Assembly: GCA_965262915.1 (NCBI GenBank)
Contig: OZ253564.1
Coordinates: 1,344,001 to 1,408,000, forward strand
Direction of reading: 5' to 3'
Origin: Candidatus Spongiisociaceae bacterium
Lineage (GTDB): Bacteria > Actinomycetota > Acidimicrobiia > Spongiisociales > Spongiisociaceae
Length of the DNA: 64,000 bases
Positions 14,017 through 61,959 of the stretch are shown here, in pieces. A program made the position numbers and the translations under genes. Position 1 is the first letter of the stretch, and every line of letters starts with the position of its first letter. The notes under the pieces are model-generated. The model had not been told where the DNA came from. It was given only the letters and a program-made list of their open reading frames with translations, and made no database searches.

Positions 14017-15759
14017 CCCCAATTCTTCATGGGGTTGGTGGTGGGGGTGGGTGGTTTGACACGGGAATGCCCTTCTGACCTGCGATTATGGGCGGTGAAG
14101 AAGTCGTCCATGGTCTCAGTCAGGAGGGCACCCGTATGGTGAAGGCTAACAGCAGTTTGAGGTTGAGGGTCGAGGTGGGGGGTGGCGGTCAGGTGGGTCA
14201 TGTGGGGTTGTGGCTGTTAGGCCGGTTCGCGGATCGTATGCGGGTGGGCGAGGTGCTGTCGGAAGCGTTCGGTGCTTCGGGTGTGGTTCATGATCGGGGC
14301 AGGTTGTTGGTTCATTTGATGCTGGTGTTGGCCGGGGGTGGGGAGGCTTGCACCGACATCGAGACGCTGCGTTCCCAGCGCCGATTGTTCGGCCCGGTGG
14401 CGTCGGACTCGACCCTGTACCGGACCCTCACCGGGGCTGATGAGGGATTGTTGGAGACCCTCGCCGGGGCGATGGTCACAGTCCGGGAACGGGTGTGGGC
14501 TGACTATCCGGCGGGCGAAACGGTGATCTTGGACATCGACTCGTCGGTTCATGAGGTGCATTCGGAGAACAAGCAGCACGCCGCGCCGACCTATAACCGC
14601 AAATACGGGTTCCATCCCCTCTATTGCTTTGGGGACTGGACCGGCGAACCCCTCGCTGCTCGGCTACGGCGAGGCGGCGCCGCGCCCAATCAGGTTTCGG
14701 ACCTGGTCGAGGTGCTGGACGCGGCGGTGGAGGCGCTGCCCAAACGGATGCGGGTGGGTCACTCGCCGGGTGACGACCCCGAGCGGGTGGTCTATCCGAT
14801 CCGGGTCCGGGCCGATTCCGCTGCGGGACCCGCGTTCGCTACCGAATGCCACAAACGTAACATCGGGTTCAGTTTCGTCGCTCGAAGATCCGACGGGATC
14901 GCCGAAGCCCTCAGCCACATTCCCCCAGACGACCCACGCTGGCAGCCCGCCCTTCCCCAACCCAGCCCACCCCAAAACAACAACAGAGGCAACCGGACCG
15001 AGATTGACAACCCCGACACCGCGCAGGCCGACGATCCAGAACCCCAGCGGGTTCGTGCCCATGTGATCGAACTCACCGACCACGTCAAAGCCTACAGATG
15101 GCCCAAAGGCCTCCGACTCGTCATCAGACGCGAACCCCGCCACCCCGGCGCGAAACGATCCCTGTTCGACTCCGACGGCTACCGCTACTGGGGACACTGG
15201 ACCGACCAAGCTCAGCCTGCCCCCGAATCCGACCGCGACATGCGCGCCCACGCCCGAGTCGAAACCCACATCGCCCGCGTCAAAGACCACGGCGGCAGCC
15301 GCTTCCCATTCACCAAATACGCTCCCAACCGGCTCTGGCTCCACATAGTCGCCCTCGCCGACACCCTCGTGCGCTGGTTCCAGAAACTCTCCCTACCCAA
15401 ACACCACCCCCTCACCCGAGCGAAGCCGAAAACACTGCGCCCGAACCTATGGCACATACCAGGCATCATCACCCGCCACAGCCGACAAACCACCCTCCGA
15501 ATACCGGTCACCTGGCCCACCGCCACCCTCATCGCAACCACCCACCAACAAATCCAAGCCCTCTAACCCTGAACCGAACCCCCAACACACCCCCCGAACC
15601 TCAACCCGACCACGCCCCGAACACCAACCCCACCCCCTACGAGCCCACCCCAACACACCCCACCATCCTCAGAACCGGCCAACCCGCCAACAACCACCCG
15701 AAGTACCCCACCCCAAAGCGCTCACACCCCCAAACCCGCCAACGCGTGAAGAATTGGGG
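14017..15759 (+). mobile_element. IS1380-family insertion sequence (copy 1)
   Basis: IR CCCCAATTCTTCA / TGAAGAATTGGGG; CTAG at 14013-14016 and 15760-15763. Confidence 0.92.
14136..15566 (+). CDS. IS1380-family transposase
   Basis: HDRGR, VASDSTLYR, ILDIDSS, YGFHPL, RADSA, RREPRHPGA, RAHARVE; RBS AGGAGG. Confidence 0.9.
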   Translation: MVKANSSLRLRVEVGGGGQVGHVGLWLLGRFADRMRVGEVLSEAFGASGVVHDRGRLLVHLMLVLAGGGEACTDIETLRSQRRLFGPVASDSTLYRTLTGADEGLLETLAGAMVTVRERVWADYPAGETVILDIDSSVHEVHSENKQHAAPTYNRKYGFHPLYCFGDWTGEPLAARLRRGGAAPNQVSDLVEVLDAAVEALPKRMRVGHSPGDDPERVVYPIRVRADSAAGPAFATECHKRNIGFSFVARRSDGIAEALSHIPPDDPRWQPALPQPSPPQNNNRGNRTEIDNPDTAQADDPEPQRVRAHVIELTDHVKAYRWPKGLRLVIRREPRHPGAKRSLFDSDGYRYWGHWTDQAQPAPESDRDMRAHARVETHIARVKDHGGSRFPFTKYAPNRLWLHIVALADTLVRWFQKLSLPKHHPLTRAKPKTLRPNLWHIPGIITRHSRQTTLRIPVTWPTATLIATTHQQIQAL

Positions 15760-15802
15760 CTAGTGATTAGTAGGATGTAACTCTATCTTACGTGGGTTTA
15801 AT

Positions 15803-15846
15803 CTGACACCTGACACCTGACACCTGACACCTGACACCTGACACCT
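15803..15846 (+). repeat. Tandem heptamer (CTGACAC)x6 plus CT, left part of an array interrupted by IS110
   Basis: Six perfect units; the array resumes in register at 17328. Confidence 0.95.
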
Positions 15847-15855
15847 AATGGGGGT

Positions 15856-16050
15856 CCACCACTTCTGCCGGTTTGTCTGGGAGGGTGTGGTGGTTGAGCT
15901 GGCCGGCCGGTGAGTACTGGTGGCACCCGGAACGCTGATTCCTAGTGTCAGATCGTACCCCGGCCGGTTCGCGAGGGCCGCTTGTAGCGCTCATGGGGTG
16001 GCGTGCCACAGAGCACTGATCCATTAGGTCGCCGCCAGGCGTTCTCCACA
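15856..16050 (+). ncRNA. IS110 bridge RNA (5' hairpin, target-binding loop, donor-binding loop)
   Basis: LTG TGGCACC 15921-15927, RTG GTGTCAG 15945-15951, LDG TGGGGTG 15994-16000, RDG CCATTAG 16021-16027. Each pair is separated by a short hairpin and closed by a stem. RNA ends approximate. Confidence 0.85.
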
Positions 16051-16086
16051 GCTCGGCAAGAATCGATCCGCACGAGGGAGGCGAAG

Positions 16087-17307
16087 ATGATTTTTGTGGG
16101 TAACGACTGGGCTGAGGGCCACCACGATGTGTATCTGCTGGACGAGGGTGGGACCCGGCTGGGGTTCGCCCGTATACCGGAAGGGATCCAAGGTATAGCC
16201 AGGTTCCACCAGATGGTCGCCGAGCACGCATCGGATGCGGCTGAGGTAGTGGTAGGCATCGAGACCGATCGTGGGCTGTGGGTCGGTGCGCTGGTCGCGG
16301 CGGGCTATGTGGTGTATGCGATCAACCCTAGGGCGGTGTCCCGCTACCGGGACCGTCACAGCCTGGGCGGAGCTAAATCAGACCGCGGTGATGCCAAGGT
16401 GTTAGCTGATCTGGTACGCACCGACCGTCACAACCACCGTCCCGTGGCCGGTGACAGCCCCGAATCGGAAGGTATCAAGATCGTGGCCAGAACGCATCAG
16501 AACCTGATCTGGGCGAGGGTGCGTCACACCAACCAGTTACGCAACGCCCTGCGCGAATACTATCCCGCAGCGCTGGAAACGTTCGCTGACCTGGCCCATT
16601 CCGACGCTGTGGCCGTACTGGGTCGGGCACCCACCCCCGCCCTTGGCGCCCGCCTGACACTGCCCCAGATCCGAGCTGCGCTCAAAAGGGGCGGACGGAA
16701 ACGCAACCTCGATCCGGTCGCCCGCAAAATACAGAAAGGCCTCCGAGCTGCTCACCTCGCCGCACCGGGGCCGGTTGAGGACGCCTTCGGAGCGACTGTC
16801 GGGGCACTGGTGAGCATCATTGGGGAGGCCAACCGCCAGATCAGCCAACTCGAAGCAACCCTGGAGACCCGTTTTGAGCAGCACCCGGACGCCGTGATCT
16901 ACCATTCCCAGCCAGGACTCGGTACTGTGCTCGGCGCCCGGGTGCTCGGTGAGTTCGGGGACGACCCCGACCGTTACACCGGGGCCAAGTCTCGCAGAAA
17001 CTACGCCGGAACGTCGCCCATCACAGTGGCGTCGGGCCGCAAACGTGCTGTCCTGGCCCGCCACGTCCGTAACCGGCGTCTCTACGACGCCTTGGACCAA
17101 TGGGCGTTCTGTTCCCTAACCCCAAGCCCAGGAGCCCGAGCGTTCTACGACCAGAAACGAGCAGCCGGCGACCTCCACCACCAAGCACTCCGAGCCCTAG
17201 CCAACCGACTCGTCGGCATCCTCCACGGCTGCCTCAAACACCGAACCCCCTACAACGAACACACCGCCTGGGCACACCGAACCCTCATCGACCGAGCCGC
17301 AGCTTGA
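16087..17307 (+). CDS. IS110-family DEDD recombinase
   Basis: VGNDWA, IETDRG, AINP, KSDRGDA (DEDD); GTSPITVASG with the candidate catalytic Ser; ALRALANRL. Confidence 0.95.
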   Translation: MIFVGNDWAEGHHDVYLLDEGGTRLGFARIPEGIQGIARFHQMVAEHASDAAEVVVGIETDRGLWVGALVAAGYVVYAINPRAVSRYRDRHSLGGAKSDRGDAKVLADLVRTDRHNHRPVAGDSPESEGIKIVARTHQNLIWARVRHTNQLRNALREYYPAALETFADLAHSDAVAVLGRAPTPALGARLTLPQIRAALKRGGRKRNLDPVARKIQKGLRAAHLAAPGPVEDAFGATVGALVSIIGEANRQISQLEATLETRFEQHPDAVIYHSQPGLGTVLGARVLGEFGDDPDRYTGAKSRRNYAGTSPITVASGRKRAVLARHVRNRRLYDALDQWAFCSLTPSPGARAFYDQKRAAGDLHHQALRALANRLVGILHGCLKHRTPYNEHTAWAHRTLIDRAAA

Positions 17308-17329
17308 CATTTACGCGCCTGGGGTGTCT
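17304..17329 (+). promoter_or_regulatory. -35 half of a circle-junction promoter
   Basis: TTGACA 17304-17309, a 17-nt spacer, then TCT joined to left-end AAT gives TCTAAT only after circularisation. Confidence 0.65.
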
Positions 17330-17342
17330 GACACCTGACACC
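17328..17342 (+). repeat. (CTGACAC)x2, right part of the interrupted array
   Basis: ctgacac ctgacac c. Confidence 0.9.
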
Positions 17343-17345
17343 GAC

Positions 17346-19466
17346 CTACCGGCCACCTCCGGCAGGCGGACTCAATCGACGAGCCCATGCCTGGAGGAGC
17401 CGGTCGAGGATCATGGCCAGAAGCACGATCGCCAGCCCGGCCGCGAAGCCCGACCCCACCGAGTCGCTCCGTCGCAAGCCGCGCACCGTCTCCAAGCCCA
17501 GACCCCCGCCCCCGACCAAGCCGGCGATCACCACCATGGCCAGCACCAGCATCACCGTCTGGTTGATCCCGGCGATGATGGTCGGCATGGCGAGGGGCAG
17601 TTGGATCTTGCGCAGGATCTGGCTCTGGGTGGCGCCGAAGGCACGGGCGGCCTCTGTCGCCTCCGCCGAGACCCGGCGGATTCCAAGGCTGGTCAACCGG
17701 GTGGCGGCGGGGAGCGCGTACAGGACCGAGGCGATTATGCCCGGGATCCTCCCCACGTTGAAGAGAATGATCACGGGAACCAGGATCACGAAGCTGGGGA
17801 TGGTCTGGAGGAAGTCCAGCACCGGCTTGAGCATGCGCTCGAACCGGTTGCTACGGGACGAGAGCACGCCCAGTGGGATCCCGAGGACGATCGCCAGGAT
17901 CACCGCCACTATCACCTGTGCCAGAGTGTCCATCGACAGGGTCCACATACCCAGCAGCCCGAGACCCAGGGCGCATGCTCCGGCGAGCGTAGCCAAGCCG
18001 GGGCCGCCGAACCACCATCCTGCCAGTATGACGGCGATCACCACCACCGGCCACGCCAGGGTGGAGCTGAAGAACTCCCGCAGAGGCGTCACCGCATAGA
18101 TGGTCACGAAGTCGCTGAACGGTCCGGTTCCGATCCACGTCTCGCCGATCTGGTACAGGTTCTTGCCGACCCAGTCGACCAGGCTGTCCACCGGAGCGGC
18201 GAAGGAGAATGTGACAGCCGAAGGGAACTCCGCTCCCTCACGGGTGGTGCCGAACACCACGGCAGCGAGCAGGAGTATTCCCCCCACCACCCGGCGCGGG
18301 TGGCGTTGGAGAGCCGTCTCCTCTCCGGTGCGTCTCGTCGTTCTCGCATCGGCCACCAGCGGATAGGAGACCATCCGCCCGGCTGCGCGGATGATCCGAT
18401 CAGCGCCCTCCAGAACCTCTTCGATCCGCCGGATCCACTGATTACCGAAGTAGCGGTCGGGGAAGATGCGCAGCCGTCCCTTCCCGGATCCGAGTCCGGC
18501 CGCACCGTGCATGAGCCGGTCCATGATGATGGCCAGCACCACTATGGCCAGACCGGCTTCGAGGGCGCGTCCCACGAACAGCCTCCGAAGGGATTCGAGG
18601 ACCACCTGGCCGAGTCCCCCGGCACCGATCAGCGCGGCGATCACGACGATGCTGAGCGCCATCATGATCGTCTGGTTGATACCCGTGAGGATGGTCGGCA
18701 TGGCTTGGGGTAGCTGGACCTTGCGCAGGATCTGGCCCGGGGTAGCTCCGAACATCTCGGCCGCTTCCACCGTCGAGGATTCCACCGAGCGGATTCCCAA
18801 CGTCGTCAAACGGATCACGGGCGGGAGTGCGTAGATCACCGTGGCGATGATGGCCGGAACCCGGGCGATCCCGAACAGGAGCACCACCGGGATCAGATAG
18901 ACGAAGGCCGGAAGGGTCTGCATGGCGTCGAGTAGTGGCCTCAGAGCGCGCTCCACGCGCTCCCGCCGGGCCGCCCATATCGCCAAGGGGATACCGATGG
19001 CGACCGAGATGACGACTGCTACTCCCATCAGGGCAAGGGTCTGGACGCTCTCCTCCCAGAGCCCTACCGACCCGAAGTACATGACGCCCGCCGCGGTGAG
19101 GATCCCCCCCTTGAACCCGAGGATGGACGTGGCCACCATTCCTGTGGCCATCACGATGACGAACCACGGCAGCCAGAGGAGAGCGGCTTCGACCCACCGG
19201 AGGCTGTAGTCGATCGCGTCACTGATCGGATTGAGCACCACCAGGAAGAGCCCGTGGGTTGTCTGGTTGCTGATCACCCAGCGGCGCGCCTGGTTGATCC
19301 ACTCGGCCAGCGGGATTCTCCACTCCTCCGGGAAGGGGCCTACCGTGTTCAGCGAGAGTCCCAGCGTCACCAGAGCCGCCAAGGCCACCAGAAGGAGCCC
19401 GCCGGTCCTGATCCGGCGGCGGCGGTCGAGGTCGAGCCGGGTCTCGACCGCCGCCGCGATGCTCAT
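17346..19466 (-). CDS. proW: Glycine betaine/proline-type ABC permease with two fused permease domains
   Basis: Two repeats of LD.MQT.P.FV.L.PV...F, EAA..FGAT..QIL.K.QLP.A.PTI..GINQT. Confidence 0.85.
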   Translation of the reverse strand: MSIAAAVETRLDLDRRRRIRTGGLLLVALAALVTLGLSLNTVGPFPEEWRIPLAEWINQARRWVISNQTTHGLFLVVLNPISDAIDYSLRWVEAALLWLPWFVIVMATGMVATSILGFKGGILTAAGVMYFGSVGLWEESVQTLALMGVAVVISVAIGIPLAIWAARRERVERALRPLLDAMQTLPAFVYLIPVVLLFGIARVPAIIATVIYALPPVIRLTTLGIRSVESSTVEAAEMFGATPGQILRKVQLPQAMPTILTGINQTIMMALSIVVIAALIGAGGLGQVVLESLRRLFVGRALEAGLAIVVLAIIMDRLMHGAAGLGSGKGRLRIFPDRYFGNQWIRRIEEVLEGADRIIRAAGRMVSYPLVADARTTRRTGEETALQRHPRRVVGGILLLAAVVFGTTREGAEFPSAVTFSFAAPVDSLVDWVGKNLYQIGETWIGTGPFSDFVTIYAVTPLREFFSSTLAWPVVVIAVILAGWWFGGPGLATLAGACALGLGLLGMWTLSMDTLAQVIVAVILAIVLGIPLGVLSSRSNRFERMLKPVLDFLQTIPSFVILVPVIILFNVGRIPGIIASVLYALPAATRLTSLGIRRVSAEATEAARAFGATQSQILRKIQLPLAMPTIIAGINQTVMLVLAMVVIAGLVGGGGLGLETVRGLRRSDSVGSGFAAGLAIVLLAMILDRLLQAWARRLSPPAGGGR

Positions 19467-58276: not shown

Positions 58277-58311
58277 CAGTTAGGGATATCGAGTAACGAT
58301 ATCCCTAACTG
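58277..58311. repeat. Perfect 15-bp inverted repeat heading the heptamer array
   Basis: CAGTTAGGGATATCG-AGTAA-CGATATCCCTAACTG. Confidence 0.9.
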
Positions 58312-58528
58312 GCACCTGGCACCTGGCACCTGGCACCTGGCACCTGGACCTGGCACCTGGCACCTGGCACCTGGCACCTGATCCCTGATCCCTGGCACCT
58401 GATCCCTGGCACCTGACCCCTGGCACCTGGCACCTGGCACCTGGCACCTGGCACCTGGCACCTGGCACCTGGCACCTGGCACCTGACCCCTGGCACCTGG
58501 CACCTGGCACCTGGCACCTGGCACCTGA
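58309..58528 (+). repeat. Tandem heptamer array (CTGGCAC), about 31 units, with CTGATCC/CTGACCC variants
   Basis: Directly visible; ends about 5 nt before the mfd ATG. Confidence 0.97.
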
Positions 58529-58533
58529 CTACG

Positions 58534-61500
58534 ATGACCACCCTCGTGCGTGCACCGCTCTCAACCCTCCTCGATCGCTGGCGTCCCGACCACCTTCCCC
58601 GGTCTCCCGCAAGACTGGTGGTGCCCGCCGCTGCCCGGGCCATCACCATCGGGGGTATCGCCAGGCGAACCACCGGGCCGTTGCTCGTCGTGGTCCCCTC
58701 CGAGAGGGATGCCGAGGCACTGGCCGCCGACCTGCGCCTGTTCGTCGACGATGTGCTGCTGTTCCCGTCCTGGGAGACGCTCCCGTTCGAACATGTGTCG
58801 CCCAACATGGCGACGATGGCCCGCCGGGCCGAGGTCCGCCACCGGATGGCCGAGGCGCCCGACGGCCTGCTGGTGGTGACCTCCGTGAGGGCGGCCATCC
58901 AGCGCGCCAGCGCGTCCTCCACCCGACCCGTGGTCGTGCGGACCGGCACCGAGTACCCGTTCGAGGATCTGGTGCGCCGCCTCGACGAGGCCGGCTACTC
59001 GCGCACGGATCGGGTCGAGTCACGCGGCGAGTTCGCCGTGCGCGGCGGCATCGTCGATGCCTTCCCGGCCCAGGCCGACGATGCGTTCCGGGTCGAGTAC
59101 TGGGGCGACCACGTCGACGACATCCGGGTGTTCTCGATCGGGTCCCAGCGTTCGGTCAGGCCGGTGGACCGCCTGGTCGCCTACCCGGCTCGCGAGTTCC
59201 GTCCCGATCCTCAGGTCCGGGCTGCCGCCCGGGCTCTCGTATCGGCCGAGCCGTGGGCGTCCTCCATCTGGGATCGGATCGCCCAGGGAGTCAGGTTCGC
59301 GGGGATGGAGTCGTGGCTTCCGTGGTTGACCGAGCCCCGCAACTTCCTCGACGATCTGCCGGATGCGGGCACGCTGGTCCTACTCGATCCGGTACGGGCC
59401 CGATCCAGGGCCAACGATCTCACGGGCGAGGAGCAGGATCTGGCCGAGGCGCTGGCCGAGACCTGGGGTGATCGGTATCCCGACCACGGGCGTAGCCCCG
59501 CCCTGTTCCTCGACCTGGTCTCCTCCCTCCCGAGCCGCCTCATGGAGTGTCCGCCTCTTCCCACCCGACCGGAGGACAGGAGGATCGAGGTGGGCGCGCT
59601 GGATGCCACTCCGGGCGATCCGGAGGCGGTGGCCGCCGGCCTGTCGCGCTTGATGGCCCGCGGTATGGATGTGGTGCTCGCCATGGACGGCGCTCCGGCC
59701 GCTGCCCGGGTGGCGAGGATCCTGAGCGACCATGGGCTCGATCTACCCGTCGTGGAGCGGTTCGGCAAGGGTGCCCGGACCGGGGTCCTCGCCGATGGTT
59801 TGCACACCGGCGTGGTCCTCCCGGCGCTGAGGATCGCGGTCCTGGGGGAGCGGGAGATCGTCGGGCGCCGGAGGACCCATCGCCGTCCGGGCCCGAGACG
59901 GACCGCTTCCGGACCTGCCTACCGGGACCTGACAGCGGGTGACTACGTCGTGCACAGCCATCACGGTATCGGGCGTTTCGACGGCCTCGTCAGCCGCACC
60001 ATCGCCGGCGTCGAGCGGGACTACCTGGTCATCGCCTACGCCAAGGGTGACAAGCTATACGTTCCCACCGACCAGCTGACCGCGGTGCGCAAGTACACAG
60101 GTGGGGAGTCGCCCAGGGTGAGCCGGATGGGCGGCGGCGACTGGGCGGCGACCCGCAACCGGGTACGCCGGGAAGCCTCCGTCCTCGCCGACCACGTGGT
60201 AGCGGTCCACCGGGCCAGAGCCACCGCAGAGGGACACGCCTTCGCGCCGGACACCCCCTGGCAGCGGGAGCTCGAGGACGCCTTTCCCTACGAGGAGACC
60301 CGCGACCAGATACGGGCTATCCATGATGTCAAGGAGGACATGGAGTCCGCCGCCCCGATGGACCGGCTCGTGTTCGGCGATGTCGGGTTCGGAAAGACGG
60401 AGGTGGCGCTGCGGGCTGCCTTCAAGGCCATGACCGACGGGTTCCAGGTGGCGATGCTGTGCCCGACCACCCTGCTGGTTCAGCAACACTTCCAGACCTT
60501 CTTGGAGCGGTTCGATCCCTTCCCGGTGAGGGTGGAGATGCTCAGCCGGTTCCTCACTCCGTCCCAGGCCCGCAGGGTGATTACCGGCCTCGGGACCGGC
60601 GAGGTGGATGTGGTCATCGGCACGCACGGGCTGCTCGCAGACAGGGTCGTATTCCACAAGCTGGGTCTGCTCGTGGTGGACGAGGAGCATCGTTTCGGGG
60701 TCAAGGCCAAGGACCGCATCAAGGCCATGAAGGTGGGGGTGGATGTCCTGACCCTCACCGCCACGCCGATCCCCCGGACGCTGGAGATGGCCCTCACCGG
60801 TATCCGGGAGGTCAGCCACATCCTGACCCCGCCCGAGGACCGCCACCCGATCCTCACCTATGTGGGGCCGGACGATCCACGGGTCACGTCGGCGGCGATC
60901 CGCAGGGAACTGCTGCGGGAGGGACAGGTCTTCTACGTCCACAACCGGGTCCGGTCGATCGAGCACGCGGTGGCGAGGCTGCGCGAGTTGGTACCCGACG
61001 CGCGGTACGGAGTGGCCCATGGCCGCATGAACGAGGGACGGCTGGAACAGACCATGCTGGACTTCTGGGACCACCGCTATGACGTGCTCGTCGCCACAAC
61101 CATCATCGAATCCGGTCTCGACCTGCCCCAGGTCAACACGTTGATCGTCGAGCGGGCCGACCAACTCGGGCTTGCCCAGCTCTACCAGCTGCGGGGCCGG
61201 GTGGGCCGTTCCGGGCGCCGGGCCTACGCCTACCTGTTCCACCCCGAGGCGCCGTCCCTGTCCGAGACCGCCTCCCGGCGCCTGGAGGCGGTTGGGGAGT
61301 TCACCGAGCTGGGATCGGGCCTGCAACTCGCCATGCGCGACCTGGAGATCCGGGGCGCCGGGTCGGTGCTGGGCGAGGTGCAGTCGGGGCACATCGCCGC
61401 GGTGGGTTTCGACCTGTACGTGGAGTTGGTCTCGGAGGCCGTGGCCGAACGGATGGGTACCGAGTTGCCGGTCGACAGACCCAAGCAGGTGCGGATCGAC

Positions 61501-61959
61501 CTCCCCGTCGACGCCCACCTGCCTGAGGACTATGTGAGGGACCAGCACGCCCGTCTCGAGGCCTATCGCCGGCTCGCCGAGGCGGGTACCCAGGCGGAAG
61601 TGGAGGACGTGGCGGCCGAATGGCGGGACCGGTACGGGCCGATGCCCCCGGAGGCGGAGCGTCTGATCGAGACGGCCCGCCTCCGGGCCGAGGCCATACG
61701 TGTCGGGATCGAGGAGATCGTGAAGTTGCGCGGCGAGATCAGGCTGGGGCTGGTCAACCTGACCCAATCGCAGGAGATCCGGTTGCAGCGCCTGATCCCG
61801 AGGGCCATCGTGCGGGCTGCCGAAGCCAGGATGTTCATTCCCGCGCCTCCCGGCCGCAATCTCGTCGGTCACCTGCTTGACTTCCTGACCGCCATGTGGC
61901 CCCCCTCCGATCCTCGCGTTGCTTCCTCACACGGTGCGCAGGAGGGCCGTACCCCGTGA
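58534..61959 (+). CDS. mfd: Transcription-repair coupling factor
   Basis: FPSWETLPF, FAVRGGIVD, HHGIGRF, GDVGFGKTEVA, DEEH, TATPIPRT, QLRGRVGRS, DLEIRGAG. Confidence 0.97.
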   Translation: MTTLVRAPLSTLLDRWRPDHLPRSPARLVVPAAARAITIGGIARRTTGPLLVVVPSERDAEALAADLRLFVDDVLLFPSWETLPFEHVSPNMATMARRAEVRHRMAEAPDGLLVVTSVRAAIQRASASSTRPVVVRTGTEYPFEDLVRRLDEAGYSRTDRVESRGEFAVRGGIVDAFPAQADDAFRVEYWGDHVDDIRVFSIGSQRSVRPVDRLVAYPAREFRPDPQVRAAARALVSAEPWASSIWDRIAQGVRFAGMESWLPWLTEPRNFLDDLPDAGTLVLLDPVRARSRANDLTGEEQDLAEALAETWGDRYPDHGRSPALFLDLVSSLPSRLMECPPLPTRPEDRRIEVGALDATPGDPEAVAAGLSRLMARGMDVVLAMDGAPAAARVARILSDHGLDLPVVERFGKGARTGVLADGLHTGVVLPALRIAVLGEREIVGRRRTHRRPGPRRTASGPAYRDLTAGDYVVHSHHGIGRFDGLVSRTIAGVERDYLVIAYAKGDKLYVPTDQLTAVRKYTGGESPRVSRMGGGDWAATRNRVRREASVLADHVVAVHRARATAEGHAFAPDTPWQRELEDAFPYEETRDQIRAIHDVKEDMESAAPMDRLVFGDVGFGKTEVALRAAFKAMTDGFQVAMLCPTTLLVQQHFQTFLERFDPFPVRVEMLSRFLTPSQARRVITGLGTGEVDVVIGTHGLLADRVVFHKLGLLVVDEEHRFGVKAKDRIKAMKVGVDVLTLTATPIPRTLEMALTGIREVSHILTPPEDRHPILTYVGPDDPRVTSAAIRRELLREGQVFYVHNRVRSIEHAVARLRELVPDARYGVAHGRMNEGRLEQTMLDFWDHRYDVLVATTIIESGLDLPQVNTLIVERADQLGLAQLYQLRGRVGRSGRRAYAYLFHPEAPSLSETASRRLEAVGEFTELGSGLQLAMRDLEIRGAGSVLGEVQSGHIAAVGFDLYVELVSEAVAERMGTELPVDRPKQVRIDLPVDAHLPEDYVRDQHARLEAYRRLAEAGTQAEVEDVAAEWRDRYGPMPPEAERLIETARLRAEAIRVGIEEIVKLRGEIRLGLVNLTQSQEIRLQRLIPRAIVRAAEARMFIPAPPGRNLVGHLLDFLTAMWPPSDPRVASSHGAQEGRTP

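What the first reader, a model, noticed from the sequence alone, without database searches (positions are those of the whole stretch)
15845..17329. IS110 bridge-RNA system programmed against a tandem heptamer repeat
Seen: the element lies in register inside (CTGACAC)n with CT on both sides. Its 240-bp left non-coding end has a 5' hairpin (CCACCAC/GTGGTGG). The target loop is CCGGCCGG..GTAC [TGGCACC] GGAA/TTCC hairpin [GTGTCAG] GTAC..CCGGCCGG. The donor loop is [TGGGGTG] GTGC/GCAC hairpin [CCATTAG]. GTGTCAG is the exact reverse complement of CTGACAC (core plus right target), and TGGCACC matches the left target TGACACC with one wobble. TGGGGTG equals the element right end (CTGGGGTGT|CT), and CCATTAG is the reverse complement of CT|AATGG at the left end. 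Known: this LTG-RTG-LDG-RDG layout is that of the IS621 bridge RNA. Inference: a natural RNA-guided recombinase whose target is a periodic repeat, offering a site every 7 bp; a compact candidate programmable tool.
Basis: partly seen in the sequence, partly recalled or inferred. Interest (0 to 1): 0.92.

Follow-up and report, generated by a model that had tools for sequence, protein, structure and literature searches.

The report
Bridge-RNA insertion sequence targeting heptamer repeats
This is a mobile element of the IS110 family whose own guide RNA is written to match the 7-base tandem repeat it sits in. It is a real but ordinary member of a known RNA-guided system, with an unusual natural target.

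Summary
Window 15847-17327 is a 1,481-bp IS110-family element inserted in register in a (CTGACAC)n array, with the core CT on both sides.

**Protein.** The 406-aa protein meets the IS110 models and keeps D7, E59, D99, D102 and S316-G317. Its predicted fold matches the IS621 and ISCro4 bridge recombinases.

**RNA.** The 240-nt left end has the bridge-RNA layout: a 5' hairpin, a target loop and a donor loop.

**Decisive evidence.** The genome holds 11 full copies with about five target classes, and 80 relatives were fetched.
- The loop guides change together with the flanks: z = 18.5 on the left and 17.1 on the right, with 0 of 2000 permutations as high.
- The stems carry compensatory changes.
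- All 7 copies with heptamer-type guides lie at heptamer-type sequence. The 4 copies with other guides do not.

**The arrays.** They are an independent feature restricted to one genus: 64 arrays and about 300 candidate sites, almost all empty.

**Verdict.** This is a new member of a known kind, and annotation models already name the protein "RNA-guided transposase". It is larger than IS621, so it is no more compact. The periodic target and the mutually complementary guides are the only new points.

The parts
15803..15846 (+). Left part of the target array, (CTGACAC) x6 plus CT. The last 8 bases, TGACAC+CT, are the left target plus core.
   Evidence: TRF finds period 7, 6.3 copies and 100% matches. 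Sequence read.
15845..15846 (+). Left copy of the core dinucleotide CT.
   Evidence: CT is the only sequence shared by both junctions.
15847..17327 (+). IS110-family insertion sequence, 1,481 bp. It runs from left end AATGGGGG to right end TGGGGTGT.
   Evidence: There are 11 full-length copies in the genome with the same ends and different flanks.
15856..16041 (+). Predicted bridge RNA, about 185 nt. The start and end are inferred, not mapped.
   Evidence: The structure is supported by covariation in 63 distinct left ends. The start is inferred from the junction promoter geometry.
15856..15893 (+). 5' stem-loop (CCACCAC ... GTGGTGG).
   Evidence: Helix 2: 4 of 6 pairs carry changes on both sides, and 93% of cells are paired.
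15898..15972 (+). Target-binding loop module: an outer stem (15898-15917 with 15955-15972) around an internal loop and the hairpin GGAA/TTCC (15929-15942).
   Evidence: Helices 3 and 4: 10 of 17 and 3 of 4 pairs carry changes on both sides, with 96.8% and 98.8% of cells paired.
15921..15927 (+). Left target guide, TGGCACC. It reads TGACAC+C of the flank with one G:T wobble.
   Evidence: Guide positions -8..-2 match the left flank in 66-98% of 64 distinct pairs, against 25-56% in permutations (98% at the invariant core C)..
15945..15951 (+). Right target guide, GTGTCAG, the reverse complement of CT+GACAC.
   Evidence: Guide positions -7..-1 match in 66-100% of 62 distinct pairs, against 32-60% in permutations outside the core. 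Paralogues switch to GTGCCAG or GTGCTAG together with their flank.
15979..16041 (+). Donor-binding loop module: outer stem CGCTTG/CAGGCG, short stem GCG/CGC, an internal loop, and the hairpin GTGC/GCAC (16003-16016).
   Evidence: The hairpin is invariant in 63 of 63 sequences. The outer stem is 82% paired, with 3 of 5 pairs changed on both sides. The short stem is weak at 69%.
15994..16002 (+). Left donor guide, TGGGGTGGC. It matches the right end TGGGGTGTC except at the base next to the core.
   Evidence: Across the family the guide GGGATG goes with right end GGGATGT, and GGGGTG goes with GGGGTGT, with a few G:T exceptions.
16021..16027 (+). Right donor guide, CCATTAG, the reverse complement of CT+AATGG (core plus left end).
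   Evidence: The core-CC relative whose donor loop the anchors captured (L059) has CCATTGG with CCAATGG.
16087..17307 (+). Recombinase gene, 406 aa. It has a DEDD RuvC-like domain, a long helical region and a Tnp domain with S316-G317.
   Evidence: PF01548 at 2.3e-33 and PF02371 at 7.7e-09. NF033542 at 181.7 bits, cut-off 140. Invariant D7, E59, D99, D102, S316, G317 in 26 of 26 sequences. Fold matches IS621 and ISCro4.
17304..17309 (+). TTGACA, the -35 half of a promoter that is complete only when the right end is joined to the left end. It overlaps the stop codon at 17305-17307.
   Evidence: At the junction the geometry is TTGACA, 17 nt, then TCTAAT. The -35 lies 18 or 19 nt from the right end in 74 of 74 family members with a mapped right end.
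17320..17327 (+). Right end TGGGGTGT, the left donor arm.
17328..17342 (+). Right copy of the core CT plus the right target GACAC and the rest of the array (CTGACAC x2.1).

Best explanation
Window 15847-17327 is an IS110-family insertion sequence of the IS110 subgroup, in which the guide RNA is encoded in the left end upstream of the recombinase gene.

**Proposed cycle (inferred from IS621)**
1. The element leaves its site as a circle.
2. Joining the right end to the left end places the conserved TTGACA of the right end 17 nt from TCTAAT (T + core CT + AAT). This drives transcription of a bridge RNA of about 185 nt.
3. The DEDD/Ser recombinase binds this RNA.
4. The donor loop pairs with the joined ends: TGGGGTG with the right end, and CCATTAG with CT+AATGG.
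5. The target loop pairs with a chromosomal site: TGGCACC with the bottom strand of TGRCAC+C, and GUGUCAG with the top strand of CT+GACAC.
6. Strand exchange at the core CT inserts the element.

**What is particular here**
- The site specified is one period of a CTGRCAC tandem heptamer, so each array offers a site every 7 bp.
- The guide bases at the polymorphic R position (G in the left guide, U in the right guide) could pair with either repeat variant by wobble.

**Shown here:** the anatomy, protein family membership, RNA structure covariation, guide/flank and guide/end covariation, and the distribution of copies and arrays.

**Inferred from IS621 work:** transcription, circle formation, RNA binding and catalysis.
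For: **Protein**
- PF01548 at 2.3e-33 and PF02371 at 7.7e-09.
- NCBIfam equivalog NF033542 "IS110 family RNA-guided transposase" at 181.7 bits, cut-off 140.
- D7, E59, D99, D102, S316 and G317 are invariant in 26 of 26 aligned relatives.
- The AlphaFold model has pLDDT 84.9. Its 10 best PDB matches are all chains of IS621 or ISCro4 bridge recombinase complexes, with E about 1e-10 and target TM 0.66-0.71.

**Element**
- 11 full copies at 84-100% identity share the same ends and the CT core but have different flanks.

**Guides**
- Within this one genome the guides change with the flanks:

| Right guide | Right flank |
|---|---|
| GTGTCAG | CTGACAC |
| GTGCCAG | CTGGCAC |
| GTGCTAG | CTAGCAC |
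| TGATAG | CTATCA |

| Left guide | Left flank |
|---|---|
| AGGCTCCT | AGGCTCCT |
| ATGCTCCT | ATGCTCCT |

- Family-wide, 76 of 81 anchor rows were kept, giving 64 distinct left pairs and 62 distinct right pairs.
- Matches at the 9 non-core positions were 362 against a permuted mean of 174.8 (z = 18.5), and 324 against 182.3 (z = 17.1). No permutation of 2000 reached these values.

**RNA structure**
- 91.5% of cells are paired, against 84.6% in shuffles.
- 212 cells are changed on both sides, against 68.6 in shuffles (0 of 500 as high) and 24-59 when the partners are slid.

**Target**
- 7 of 7 copies with heptamer-type guides have heptamer units at one or both junctions. 0 of the 4 other copies do.

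**Promoter half**
- The -35 lies 18-19 nt from the right end in 74 of 74 members.

**Published mechanism**
- PMC11208160 and PMC11208158 (passages read).
Against: - There is no evidence of RNA, of a circle junction or of an empty site.
- The single-sequence fold is no more stable than shuffles (z = -0.71).
- The left guide is imperfect. It has one G:T wobble, and its last base is C where the core has T.
- In this clade that last guide position matches the core T no better than chance (0.45 against 0.41). In IS621 both core bases are reported to be read by all four guides.
- The donor guide has a G/T mismatch next to the core.
- The junction -10 (TCTAAT) lacks the A at position 2.
- 4 of 11 copies (L002, L003, L004, L011) have a frameshifted gene.
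- 3 copies (L003, L010, L011) carry a donor guide, CTGCTAG, that does not match their own left end.
- A few relatives sit at flanks that fit their own right guide poorly: L029 matches 4 of 11 positions, and L095 and L096 match 4 of 11.
- The two target guides of this copy are complementary to each other, so the RNA alone is predicted to close the loop.
Confidence: 0.88

Rival explanations
1. The architecture is that of a bridge-RNA element, but this copy or subfamily is an inactive relic that no longer moves. The guide/flank matches would then record past insertions only.
For: - Copies differ by 1-16%.
- 4 of 11 copies have frameshifted genes, and of the four copies sharing the GTGTCAG guide only the window copy is intact.
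- Several truncated remnants exist.
- No RNA or circle evidence could be obtained.
Against: - The window copy has an intact 406-aa frame with all invariant catalytic residues, intact ends and guides that match its site.
- L006 and L007 are 99% identical yet lie at different loci, as are L008-L010. This argues for fairly recent movement in sister subfamilies.
Confidence: 0.2
2. The choice of heptamer arrays is made mainly by the protein, or by an unusual DNA structure of the repeat. The RNA complementarity would be secondary.
For: - 6 of 7 heptamer-site copies lie within two units of the right edge of their array rather than at random registers.
- A structure-plus-sequence rule has been proposed for another IS110 element (abstract of 10.64898/2026.03.19.712850, seen in the listing).
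Against: - Single-base differences in the right guide (U, C, or CU) track single-base differences in the right flank among close paralogues.
- Family-wide covariation covers unrelated, non-repeat targets.
- Reprogramming experiments on IS621 show that the RNA determines the target (PMC11208160).
Confidence: 0.05
3. The heptamer arrays are a product of the element, as footprints or duplications made by recombination, rather than a pre-existing target.
For: - This genome has both the heptamer-guided copies and far more array sequence than its relatives: 205 pattern hits against 4, 5 and 8.
- Tandem duplications next to IS110 elements have been reported, but with units of 50 bp or more (10.64898/2026.08.14.744561, passages).
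Against: - By the exact-unit rule, 61 of 64 arrays of 3 or more units have no copy within 30 bp.
- Arrays occur in three same-genus genomes in which none of the 7 recognised target loops has a heptamer guide.
- The genome carries many other heptamer unit types that do not match the guides.
- Exchange at a 2-nt core does not create 7-bp units.
Confidence: 0.04
4. The resemblance to a bridge RNA is a chance pattern in a GC-rich 5' untranslated region.
For: The single-sequence fold is not more stable than shuffles. No Rfam family matches the left end at E up to 10.
Against: - Structure covariation.
- Guide/flank covariation, with 0 of 2000 permutations as high.
- Conserved architecture in 63 distinct left ends from several actinobacterial genera.
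Confidence: 0.01

Closest known systems
IS621 of Escherichia coli (bridge recombinase plus bridge RNA; PDB 8wt6, 8wt9)
   Same: - DEDD RuvC-like domain, coiled coil, and a Tnp domain with a catalytic Ser-Gly.
- CT core.
- RNA encoded in the left end, with a 5' stem-loop, a target loop (left and right guides) and a donor loop (left and right guides).
- A promoter split between the right and left ends.
- Possible handshake dinucleotides AU (after the right target guide) and GU (after the right donor guide). These are the same letters as IS621 A81/U82 and G166/U167 (passages). This last point is inference only.
   Different: - About 18-20% sequence identity in the structural alignment, and only E = 1.3e-7 by sequence.
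- 406 aa against 326 aa.
- The right target guide reads 7 bases (5 plus the core), against the 4-base guide stated for IS621.
- The left guide reads 6 bases plus the first core base only.
- The natural target is a tandem heptamer. By recollection (no call checked this), the natural IS621 target is a REP element.
ISCro4 / IS622 bridge recombinases (PDB 9t56)
   Same: Best structural match of the model (E = 9.5e-11). Same kind of system.
   Different: These are engineered for genome editing in human cells (abstract of 10.1101/2025.05.14.653916, listing). The present element is uncharacterised and comes from an uncultured-type actinobacterial genome.
ISPpu9 / ISPpu10 of Pseudomonas putida (IS110 elements inserting into repeated extragenic sequences)
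   Same: IS110 elements whose natural targets are multi-copy intergenic repeats, which gives many equivalent sites that avoid genes (abstracts of PMC12288879 and 10.64898/2026.03.19.712850, listing).
   Different: Their targets are dispersed palindromic units, one site per unit. Here the target is a head-to-tail microsatellite, with a site in every period and mutually complementary guides.
Actinobacterial IS110-family elements in Rhodococcus, Mycobacterium, Nocardia and Gordonia
   Same: - 60-75% protein identity.
- The same ends (CT|AATGGG ... GGGRTRT|CT).
- The same left-end RNA architecture, and guides that fit their flanks.
- They are annotated "IS110 family transposase" on plasmids.
   Different: Their guides and targets differ. 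None of the 80 fetched loci sits in a heptamer array.
IS1111-subgroup elements with seekRNA (recalled from Siddiquee et al. 2024; not read here)
   Same: Same transposase family and the same RNA-guided logic.
   Different: In that subgroup the RNA is encoded downstream of the transposase gene. Here it is upstream, in the left end.

Membership tests
IS110 family / bridge recombinase system (IS621 type) | N-terminal RuvC-like DEDD domain | tested here: met
   PF01548 covers residues 4-160 at 2.3e-33. D7, E59, D99 and D102 are invariant in 26 of 26 sequences. In the one direct alignment to IS621, D99 and D102 fall on an IS621 D..D pair that I read as D102 and D105 by motif, not by residue count. 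That alignment starts at query residue 44 and leaves E59 opposite a different residue, so the D7 and E59 correspondence to IS621 D11 and E60 rests on domain position and motif order.
IS110 family / bridge recombinase system (IS621 type) | C-terminal Tnp domain with a catalytic serine followed by glycine | tested here: met
   PF02371 at 7.7e-09. S316-G317 are invariant and align with the IS621 ESG motif. The loop 309-327 has low confidence in the model, and the S241 loop is disordered in two IS621 protomers.
IS110 family / bridge recombinase system (IS621 type) | Overall fold like the solved bridge recombinases | tested here: met
   The top 10 Foldseek PDB hits are all IS621 or ISCro4 chains, with E from 9.5e-11 to 1.7e-9 and target TM 0.66-0.71.
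IS110 family / bridge recombinase system (IS621 type) | A short core (CT) present once in the target and at both junctions after insertion, with no long target duplication | tested here: met
   CT is the only shared sequence at both junctions in 10 of 11 copies. L011 is anomalous.
IS110 family / bridge recombinase system (IS621 type) | A long non-coding end encoding a structured RNA with two internal loops | tested here: met
   The left end is 240 nt. Compensatory changes occur in the 5' hairpin, the target-loop stem and hairpin, and the donor-loop outer stem. The short donor-loop stem is weak at 69% paired.
IS110 family / bridge recombinase system (IS621 type) | Target-loop guides complementary to the flanks and covarying with them | tested here: met
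   z = 18.5 and 17.1, with 0 of 2000 permutations as high. One difference: the guide base opposite the second core base does not covary in this clade.
IS110 family / bridge recombinase system (IS621 type) | Donor-loop guides complementary to the element's own ends | tested here: met
   In the window copy 7 of 7 (right donor guide) and 8 of 9 (left donor guide) bases match. Across the family the G/A position of the right end and the core-CC variant change together with the guide. Three paralogues have a non-matching right donor guide.
IS110 family / bridge recombinase system (IS621 type) | [quoted passage not shown] | tested here: inconclusive
   By sequence only. The junction gives TTGACA, 17 nt, TCTAAT. 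The -35 lies at a fixed 18-19 nt from the end in 74 of 74 members. No promoter-like site is found in the integrated state. Transcription itself was not tested.
IS110 family / bridge recombinase system (IS621 type) | Circular intermediate, RNA bound by the recombinase, and RNA-dependent recombination | not testable with these tools
Rfam RNA families | A match of the left end to a curated covariance model | tested here: not met
   No hit in 15847-16086 at E up to 10. The only hit over threshold is Ms_AS-4, antisense inside the gene.

The most novel reading that the evidence does not exclude
This lineage was retargeted by one or two point changes in the right guide onto a genus-specific heptamer microsatellite. 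The natural series GAGCUAG, GUGCUAG, GUGCCAG, GUGUCAG is still present among relatives and paralogues.

The guide bases at the polymorphic repeat position (G in the left guide, U in the right guide) would let one RNA read both the CTGACAC and the CTGGCAC units by wobble.

Because the target is a direct repeat, the two guides are complementary to each other, so the target loop can close on itself. This would be a built-in brake or switch that is absent from elements with non-repeat targets.

A bolder form, which I rate much lower, is that the element and the arrays expanded together in this genome because each favours the other.
Probability: 0.25. Interest if true: 0.55.

Novelty: new member of a known kind. 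Interest (0 to 1): 0.36.

Why it matters
For the field of bridge recombinases this locus adds no new mechanism. It offers three things.

- **A natural retargeting series.** Eleven paralogues in one genome have about five target specificities. Their guides differ by one to a few bases and match their flanks. This independently confirms the published guide code in a distant actinobacterial clade.
- **A natural periodic target.** It raises testable questions. How is the register chosen inside an array? Is a G:T or U:G wobble tolerated at a polymorphic repeat position? Does complementarity between the two target guides lower or regulate activity?
- **A note for genome annotation.** In this lineage, heptamer microsatellites are landing pads for mobile DNA.

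As a tool it has no evident advantage over IS621 or ISCro4. It is larger, and its natural target is repetitive.

Tried and rejected
**Searches and tests that led nowhere**
- Rfam search of 15600-17500 at E up to 10 found no family on the left end.
- The single-sequence fold of the left end has z = -0.71, so it is uninformative on its own.
- The promoter and terminator scan of the integrated locus found 0 sites.
- I asked whether other IS110 subfamilies of this genome also use heptamers. One nine-copy subfamily was examined. Its flanks show no heptamers and its left boundary was not reached. I did not pursue this.
- I asked whether same-genus genomes hold a heptamer-guided copy. Of 24 left-end matches in 4 of the 5 genomes searched, 7 had a recognisable target loop, and none of those had a heptamer guide. 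The assemblies are fragmented, so absence is not shown.

**Literature**
- Among the 15 listed papers holding two or more of IS110, heptanucleotide, heptamer repeat, tandem heptamer, microsatellite or STRR, none held IS110.
- 23 papers hold both "bridge RNA" and "tandem repeat". I read the relevant passages in two of them, and both mean tandem copies of the element or cargo, not microsatellite targets.
- So I found no description of an IS110 element targeting a microsatellite in these searches. The element or its target may be listed there.

**Unexplained and left aside**
- The donor-loop variant CTGCTAG in L003, L010 and L011.
- The altered right end of L011.

**Rows dropped**
- the partial copies L012-L023 were excluded beforehand.
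- 12 loci gave no anchor match, mostly because the left end was cut or diverged: L032, L045, L050, L063, L064, L065, L085, L086, L092, L093, L094, L099.
- 5 of 81 anchor rows were dropped as misplaced or duplicate: a second hit in L003, a second hit in L011 (which is L010), and L047, L060 and L073.
- In one search the anchor regex mis-placed the donor loop in 9 rows (L061, L068, L078, L081, L091, L095-L098). I read those rows by eye only.

**No support / no verdict**
- The look-up of sequencing runs listed 24 runs. 20 hold part of the stretch, and 2 are on record as RNA, each with a share of 0.07. None was laid, so they say nothing about expression or habitat.
Full report
**Observation.**
- Tandem Repeats Finder gives (CTGACAC) x6.3 at 15803-15846 and x2.1 at 17328-17342, both with 100% matches.
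- Between them lies a 1,481-bp element, 15847-17327. It begins AATGGGGG and ends TGGGGTGT, and CT precedes and follows it.
- Taking out the element and one CT leaves eight heptamer units in register.
- An ATG-initiated frame of 406 codons runs from 16087 to 17307. This leaves a 240-nt non-coding left end.

**The protein.**
- It matches Pfam DEDD_Tnp_IS110 (2.3e-33) and Transposase_20 (7.7e-09).
- It matches the NCBIfam equivalog NF033542, "IS110 family RNA-guided transposase", at 181.7 bits against a cut-off of 140.
- In an alignment with 25 relatives of 61-83% identity, D7, E59, D99, D102, S316 and G317 are invariant. In a wider set of 66 distinct intact proteins, E59, D99, D102, S316 and G317 are invariant.
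- These fit, by domain position and motif order, the IS621 residues D11, E60, D102, D105 and S241-G242 described in PMC11208158 (passages). The one direct sequence alignment to IS621 supports the D99/D102 pair and the Ser-Gly motif. It does not cover D7 and does not place E59 on the IS621 glutamate.
- An AlphaFold model built on that alignment has mean pLDDT 84.9 and pTM 0.73. The loop carrying S316 has low confidence.
- Its ten best matches among solved structures are all chains of the ISCro4 and IS621 bridge recombinase complexes, with E from 9.5e-11 to 1.7e-9 and target TM-scores of 0.66-0.71. TIGR-Tas and Nop5-type proteins follow.
- Sequence alone finds IS621 only weakly (E = 1.3e-7).

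**Copies in the same genome.** The window's genome is one contig of 5.05 Mb with 64% G+C. It holds 23 matches to the element, 11 of them full-length at 84-100% identity. All 11 share the same ends, and 10 of 11 have a clean CT on both sides. Their flanks fall into classes, and the two strings of the target loop change with them.

| Copies | Flanks | Left guide | Right guide | Fit |
|---|---|---|---|---|
| L001-L004 | GACAC-CT ... CT-GACAC | (T/C)GGCACC | GTGTCAG | right 7 of 7 |
| L005 | right CTAGCAC | - | GTGCTAG | matches |
| L006, L007 | right CTGGCAC | - | GTGCCAG | matches |
| L008-L010 | AAGGCTC-CT ... CT-ATCA | AGGCTCCT | TGATAG | matches |
| L011 | left ATGCTC-CT, right CT-ATGGT | ATGCTCCT | AACATAG | right 6 of 7 |

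- L003 differs from L001 by C instead of T at the seventh base of the left flank, and its guide carries the same change.
- Counting units with at most one mismatch, all 7 copies with heptamer-type guides have heptamer units at one junction (L002, L003) or at both (L001, L004-L007). None of the 4 other copies has any.
- Two remnants also lie at heptamers: the split copy L017 + L013, and the right-end fragment L016.

**Relatives elsewhere.**
- A scan of one genome per species found 242 stretches encoding relatives, and the best 80 loci were kept.
- The nearest, at 79-83% protein identity, are in metagenome-assembled genomes labelled Acidimicrobiia or Candidatus Spongiisociaceae.
- Others, at 60-75%, are in Rhodococcus, Mycobacterium, Nocardia, Gordonia and uncultured Actinomycetota.
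- Their left and right ends show the same architecture.
- I extracted guides and flanks with sequence anchors. 12 loci gave no anchors, the partial copies L012-L023 were left out, and 5 of 81 rows were dropped as misplaced or duplicate. This left 64 distinct left pairs and 62 distinct right pairs.
- The left guide equals the top strand of the left flank at positions -8 to -2 in 66-98% of pairs. Permuted values are 25-56%, and 98% at the invariant core C.
- The right guide equals the reverse complement of the right flank at positions -7 to -1 in 66-100% of pairs. Permuted values are 32-60% outside the core.
- Summed over the nine non-core positions, the matches are 362 against 174.8 (sd 10.1) and 324 against 182.3 (sd 8.3). 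No permutation of 2000 reached the observed values.
- The sense of pairing is the one published for IS621: the left guide pairs with the bottom strand, and the right guide with the top strand (PMC11208160).
- Two differences from IS621 appear. The right guide reads about seven bases instead of the four stated there. The last base of the left guide, opposite the core T, matches no better than chance (0.45 against 0.41).
- Not every insertion fits. L029, L095 and L096 match only 4 of 11 positions on the right. This could reflect guidance in trans by a sister copy, or off-target events.

**The RNA structure.**
- 63 distinct left ends were aligned.
- RNAalifold recovers the 5' hairpin, the long stem closing the target loop, the hairpin inside it and the hairpin of the donor loop. 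15 of the 33 predicted pairs keep pairing through changes on both sides.
- I also tested a structure that I named, which adds the outer stems of the donor loop. 91.5% of cells pair, against 84.6% in shuffles.
- 212 cells are changed on both sides, against 68.6 in shuffles (0 of 500 as high) and 24-59 when the partners are slid by 1-3 columns.
- The short 3-bp stem next to the donor loop is weak, at 69% paired.
- The fold of the single sequence is not more stable than shuffles (z = -0.71), so the support comes from comparison rather than from energy.
- No Rfam family matches the left end.

**Donor side and promoter.**
- In the window copy, CCATTAG is the exact reverse complement of CT+AATGG.
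- TGGGGTGGC equals the right end TGGGGTGTC except at the base next to the core. That is the donor position reported as mismatch-tolerant in IS621.
- Across the family the A/G position of the right end (GGGATGT or GGGGTGT) mostly goes with the same base in the guide. L059, the core-CC relative whose donor loop the anchors captured, has CCATTGG with CCAATGG.
- The right end carries TTGACA at 17304-17309, overlapping the stop codon. Joined to the left end through one CT, it lies 17 nt from TCTAAT.
- The distance from this hexamer to the right end is 18 or 19 nt in 74 of 74 family members with a mapped end.
- In the integrated state the corresponding upstream hexamers match TTGACA at 0-2 of 6 positions. 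The scan finds no promoter-like site in 15600-17500.
- This fits the published model, in which the circle reconstitutes the promoter of the bridge RNA. It is sequence evidence only.
- The dinucleotides that follow the right target guide (AU) and the right donor guide (GU) are the same letters as the IS621 handshake guides. They would pair with the bases before the core of the donor (GT) and of the target (AC). This is an inference from the passages.

**The target.**
- The genome holds 97 perfect period-7 arrays of at least three units. 37 are of the CTGGCAC type and 15 of the CTGACAC type, and many other unit types occur.
- With R at the fourth position there are 64 arrays of three or more units and 299 copies of the 13-base site TGRCAC-CT-GRCAC. 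Only a handful are occupied.
- The arrays are composite and intergenic, and they often abut other repeated sequences.
- A second array lies in the window at 58309-58524, directly upstream of a 1,141-codon frame.
- The three-unit pattern occurs 205 times in this genome. It occurs 4, 5 and 8 times in three of seven other genomes of the same genus, and not at all in the 23 genomes searched from other genera. The pattern read backwards gives zero everywhere.
- In five same-genus genomes searched with the left end, seven target loops were recognised, and none has a heptamer guide.
- The arrays are therefore older and wider than the heptamer-guided copies, and they are the target rather than a product.
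- The right guides of relatives and paralogues form a one-step series: GAGCTAG in a same-genus relative, then GTGCTAG (L005), GTGCCAG (L006/L007) and GTGTCAG (L001-L004). The left guide GGCACC is shared by all of them.

**Consequences of a periodic target (inference).**
- The left and right targets are the same repeat, so the left guide (UGGCAC) and the right guide (GUGUCA) are complementary to each other.
- Forbidding these bases to pair costs 10.8-13.5 kcal/mol in L001, L004, L005 and L006. These are the four highest values among 57 distinct target loops (middle of the list about 5 kcal/mol). L003 costs 8.1. The RNA alone would thus tend to close the loop.
- At the polymorphic fourth base of the repeat, the window copy carries G in the left guide and U in the right guide. 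Either could pair with both variants by wobble. Six of the seven left junctions in fact use the G:T wobble.
- Six of the seven copies lie within two units of the right edge of their array. This is a post-hoc observation on few cases.

**State of the copies.**
- The gene is intact in 7 of 11 copies: L001 and L005-L010.
- L002, L003 and L004 share a one-base difference near codon 328 that shifts the frame. L003 has a further indel, and L011 is also broken.
- Differences between copies are clustered, which suggests exchange between copies.
- Within the GTGTCAG subfamily, the window copy is the only one with an intact gene.

**What could not be done.**
- A search of public runs listed 24 runs.
- There is thus no evidence on transcription, on circle junctions or on empty sites.
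- The notes of earlier readers were closed, and supplementary files of papers are closed.

**Comparison and verdict.**
- Every family-defining feature that sequence can test is met. The element is a member of the IS110 family of bridge-RNA-guided insertion sequences.
- It works, as far as can be inferred, like IS621. It differs in guide lengths, in protein size (406 aa against 326) and in its natural target.
- In my literature searches I found no description of an IS110 element aimed at a microsatellite, with the limits stated under Tried and rejected.
- The finding is real and neatly documented, but it is a new member of a known kind.

Noticed in passing
whole genome G000; in the window 58309-58524: The genome is rich in composite heptamer microsatellites. 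It holds 97 perfect arrays of 3 or more units with many unit types (CTGGCAC, CTGACAC, CCGACAC, CCGGCAA, CTGACCA and others). The second array in the window ends 9 bases before the ATG of a 1,141-codon frame (58534-61959). It is preceded by an inverted repeat, TTAGGGATATCG / CGATATCCCTAA, at 58280-58308.
   Followed up: partly
window 16908-16989, minus strand: There is an Rfam hit to Ms_AS-4 (RF02464) at 89 bits against a threshold of 50. It lies antisense inside the most conserved part of the recombinase gene. It probably reflects nucleotide conservation of IS110 genes among actinobacteria, although an antisense RNA is possible.
   Followed up: no
window 14088-15566, plus strand: A 492-codon frame matches DDE_Tnp_1_4 (2.1e-45). 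This is a second, unrelated transposase gene ending about 240 bp upstream of the heptamer array.
   Followed up: no
L011 = G000:C1:290128-291609 (minus): The right end is abnormal. TGT is missing, and six bases identical to the left target (ATGCTC) precede the core, so ATGCTCCT flanks the element on both sides. The homologous site in a relative (L027) has a normal right end.
   Followed up: partly
L003, L010, L011 (left ends; alignment): Three copies carry CTGCTAG instead of CCATTAG in the donor loop, and GAGGGGG instead of CATGGGG on the other side, although their left ends still begin AATGG. L009 has only the second change. The meaning is unknown.
   Followed up: no
L008, L009, L010 = G000:C1:4420451-4421935, 3638544-3640028, 287302-288786: These copies lie directly beside another IS110-family gene (PF01548 hits at 4419881-4420315, 3640164-3640598 and 288913-289350). 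L008 and L009 have identical flanks on both sides. This subfamily seems to be aimed at the end of another insertion sequence and to travel with it.
   Followed up: partly
whole genome G000: There are 51 matches to the IS110 DEDD domain, an unusually heavy load of this family. They include one subfamily of at least nine near-identical copies that is not associated with heptamers.
   Followed up: partly
window 17323-17335: The right junction forms a 13-base palindrome, GGTGTC-T-GACACC. The end of the element is the reverse complement of the repeat unit that follows it.
   Followed up: no
L001-L007 junctions: Six of seven heptamer-site copies have only 1-2 repeat units on their right side but up to 25 on the left. 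L003 is the reverse, with 0 on the left and 4 on the right. Insertions seem to sit at the edges of arrays.
   Followed up: partly
G000:C1:1659790-1659943: An empty array of 22 units is made of 9 CTGGCAC units followed by 13 CTGACAC units. This is the pattern expected if two arrays of different type were joined, or if each type grew separately.
   Followed up: no
alignment of L001-L004: Differences between these 95-98% identical copies are clustered in short blocks (for example positions 669-693, 793-814 and 880-891). This suggests exchange of segments between copies.
   Followed up: no
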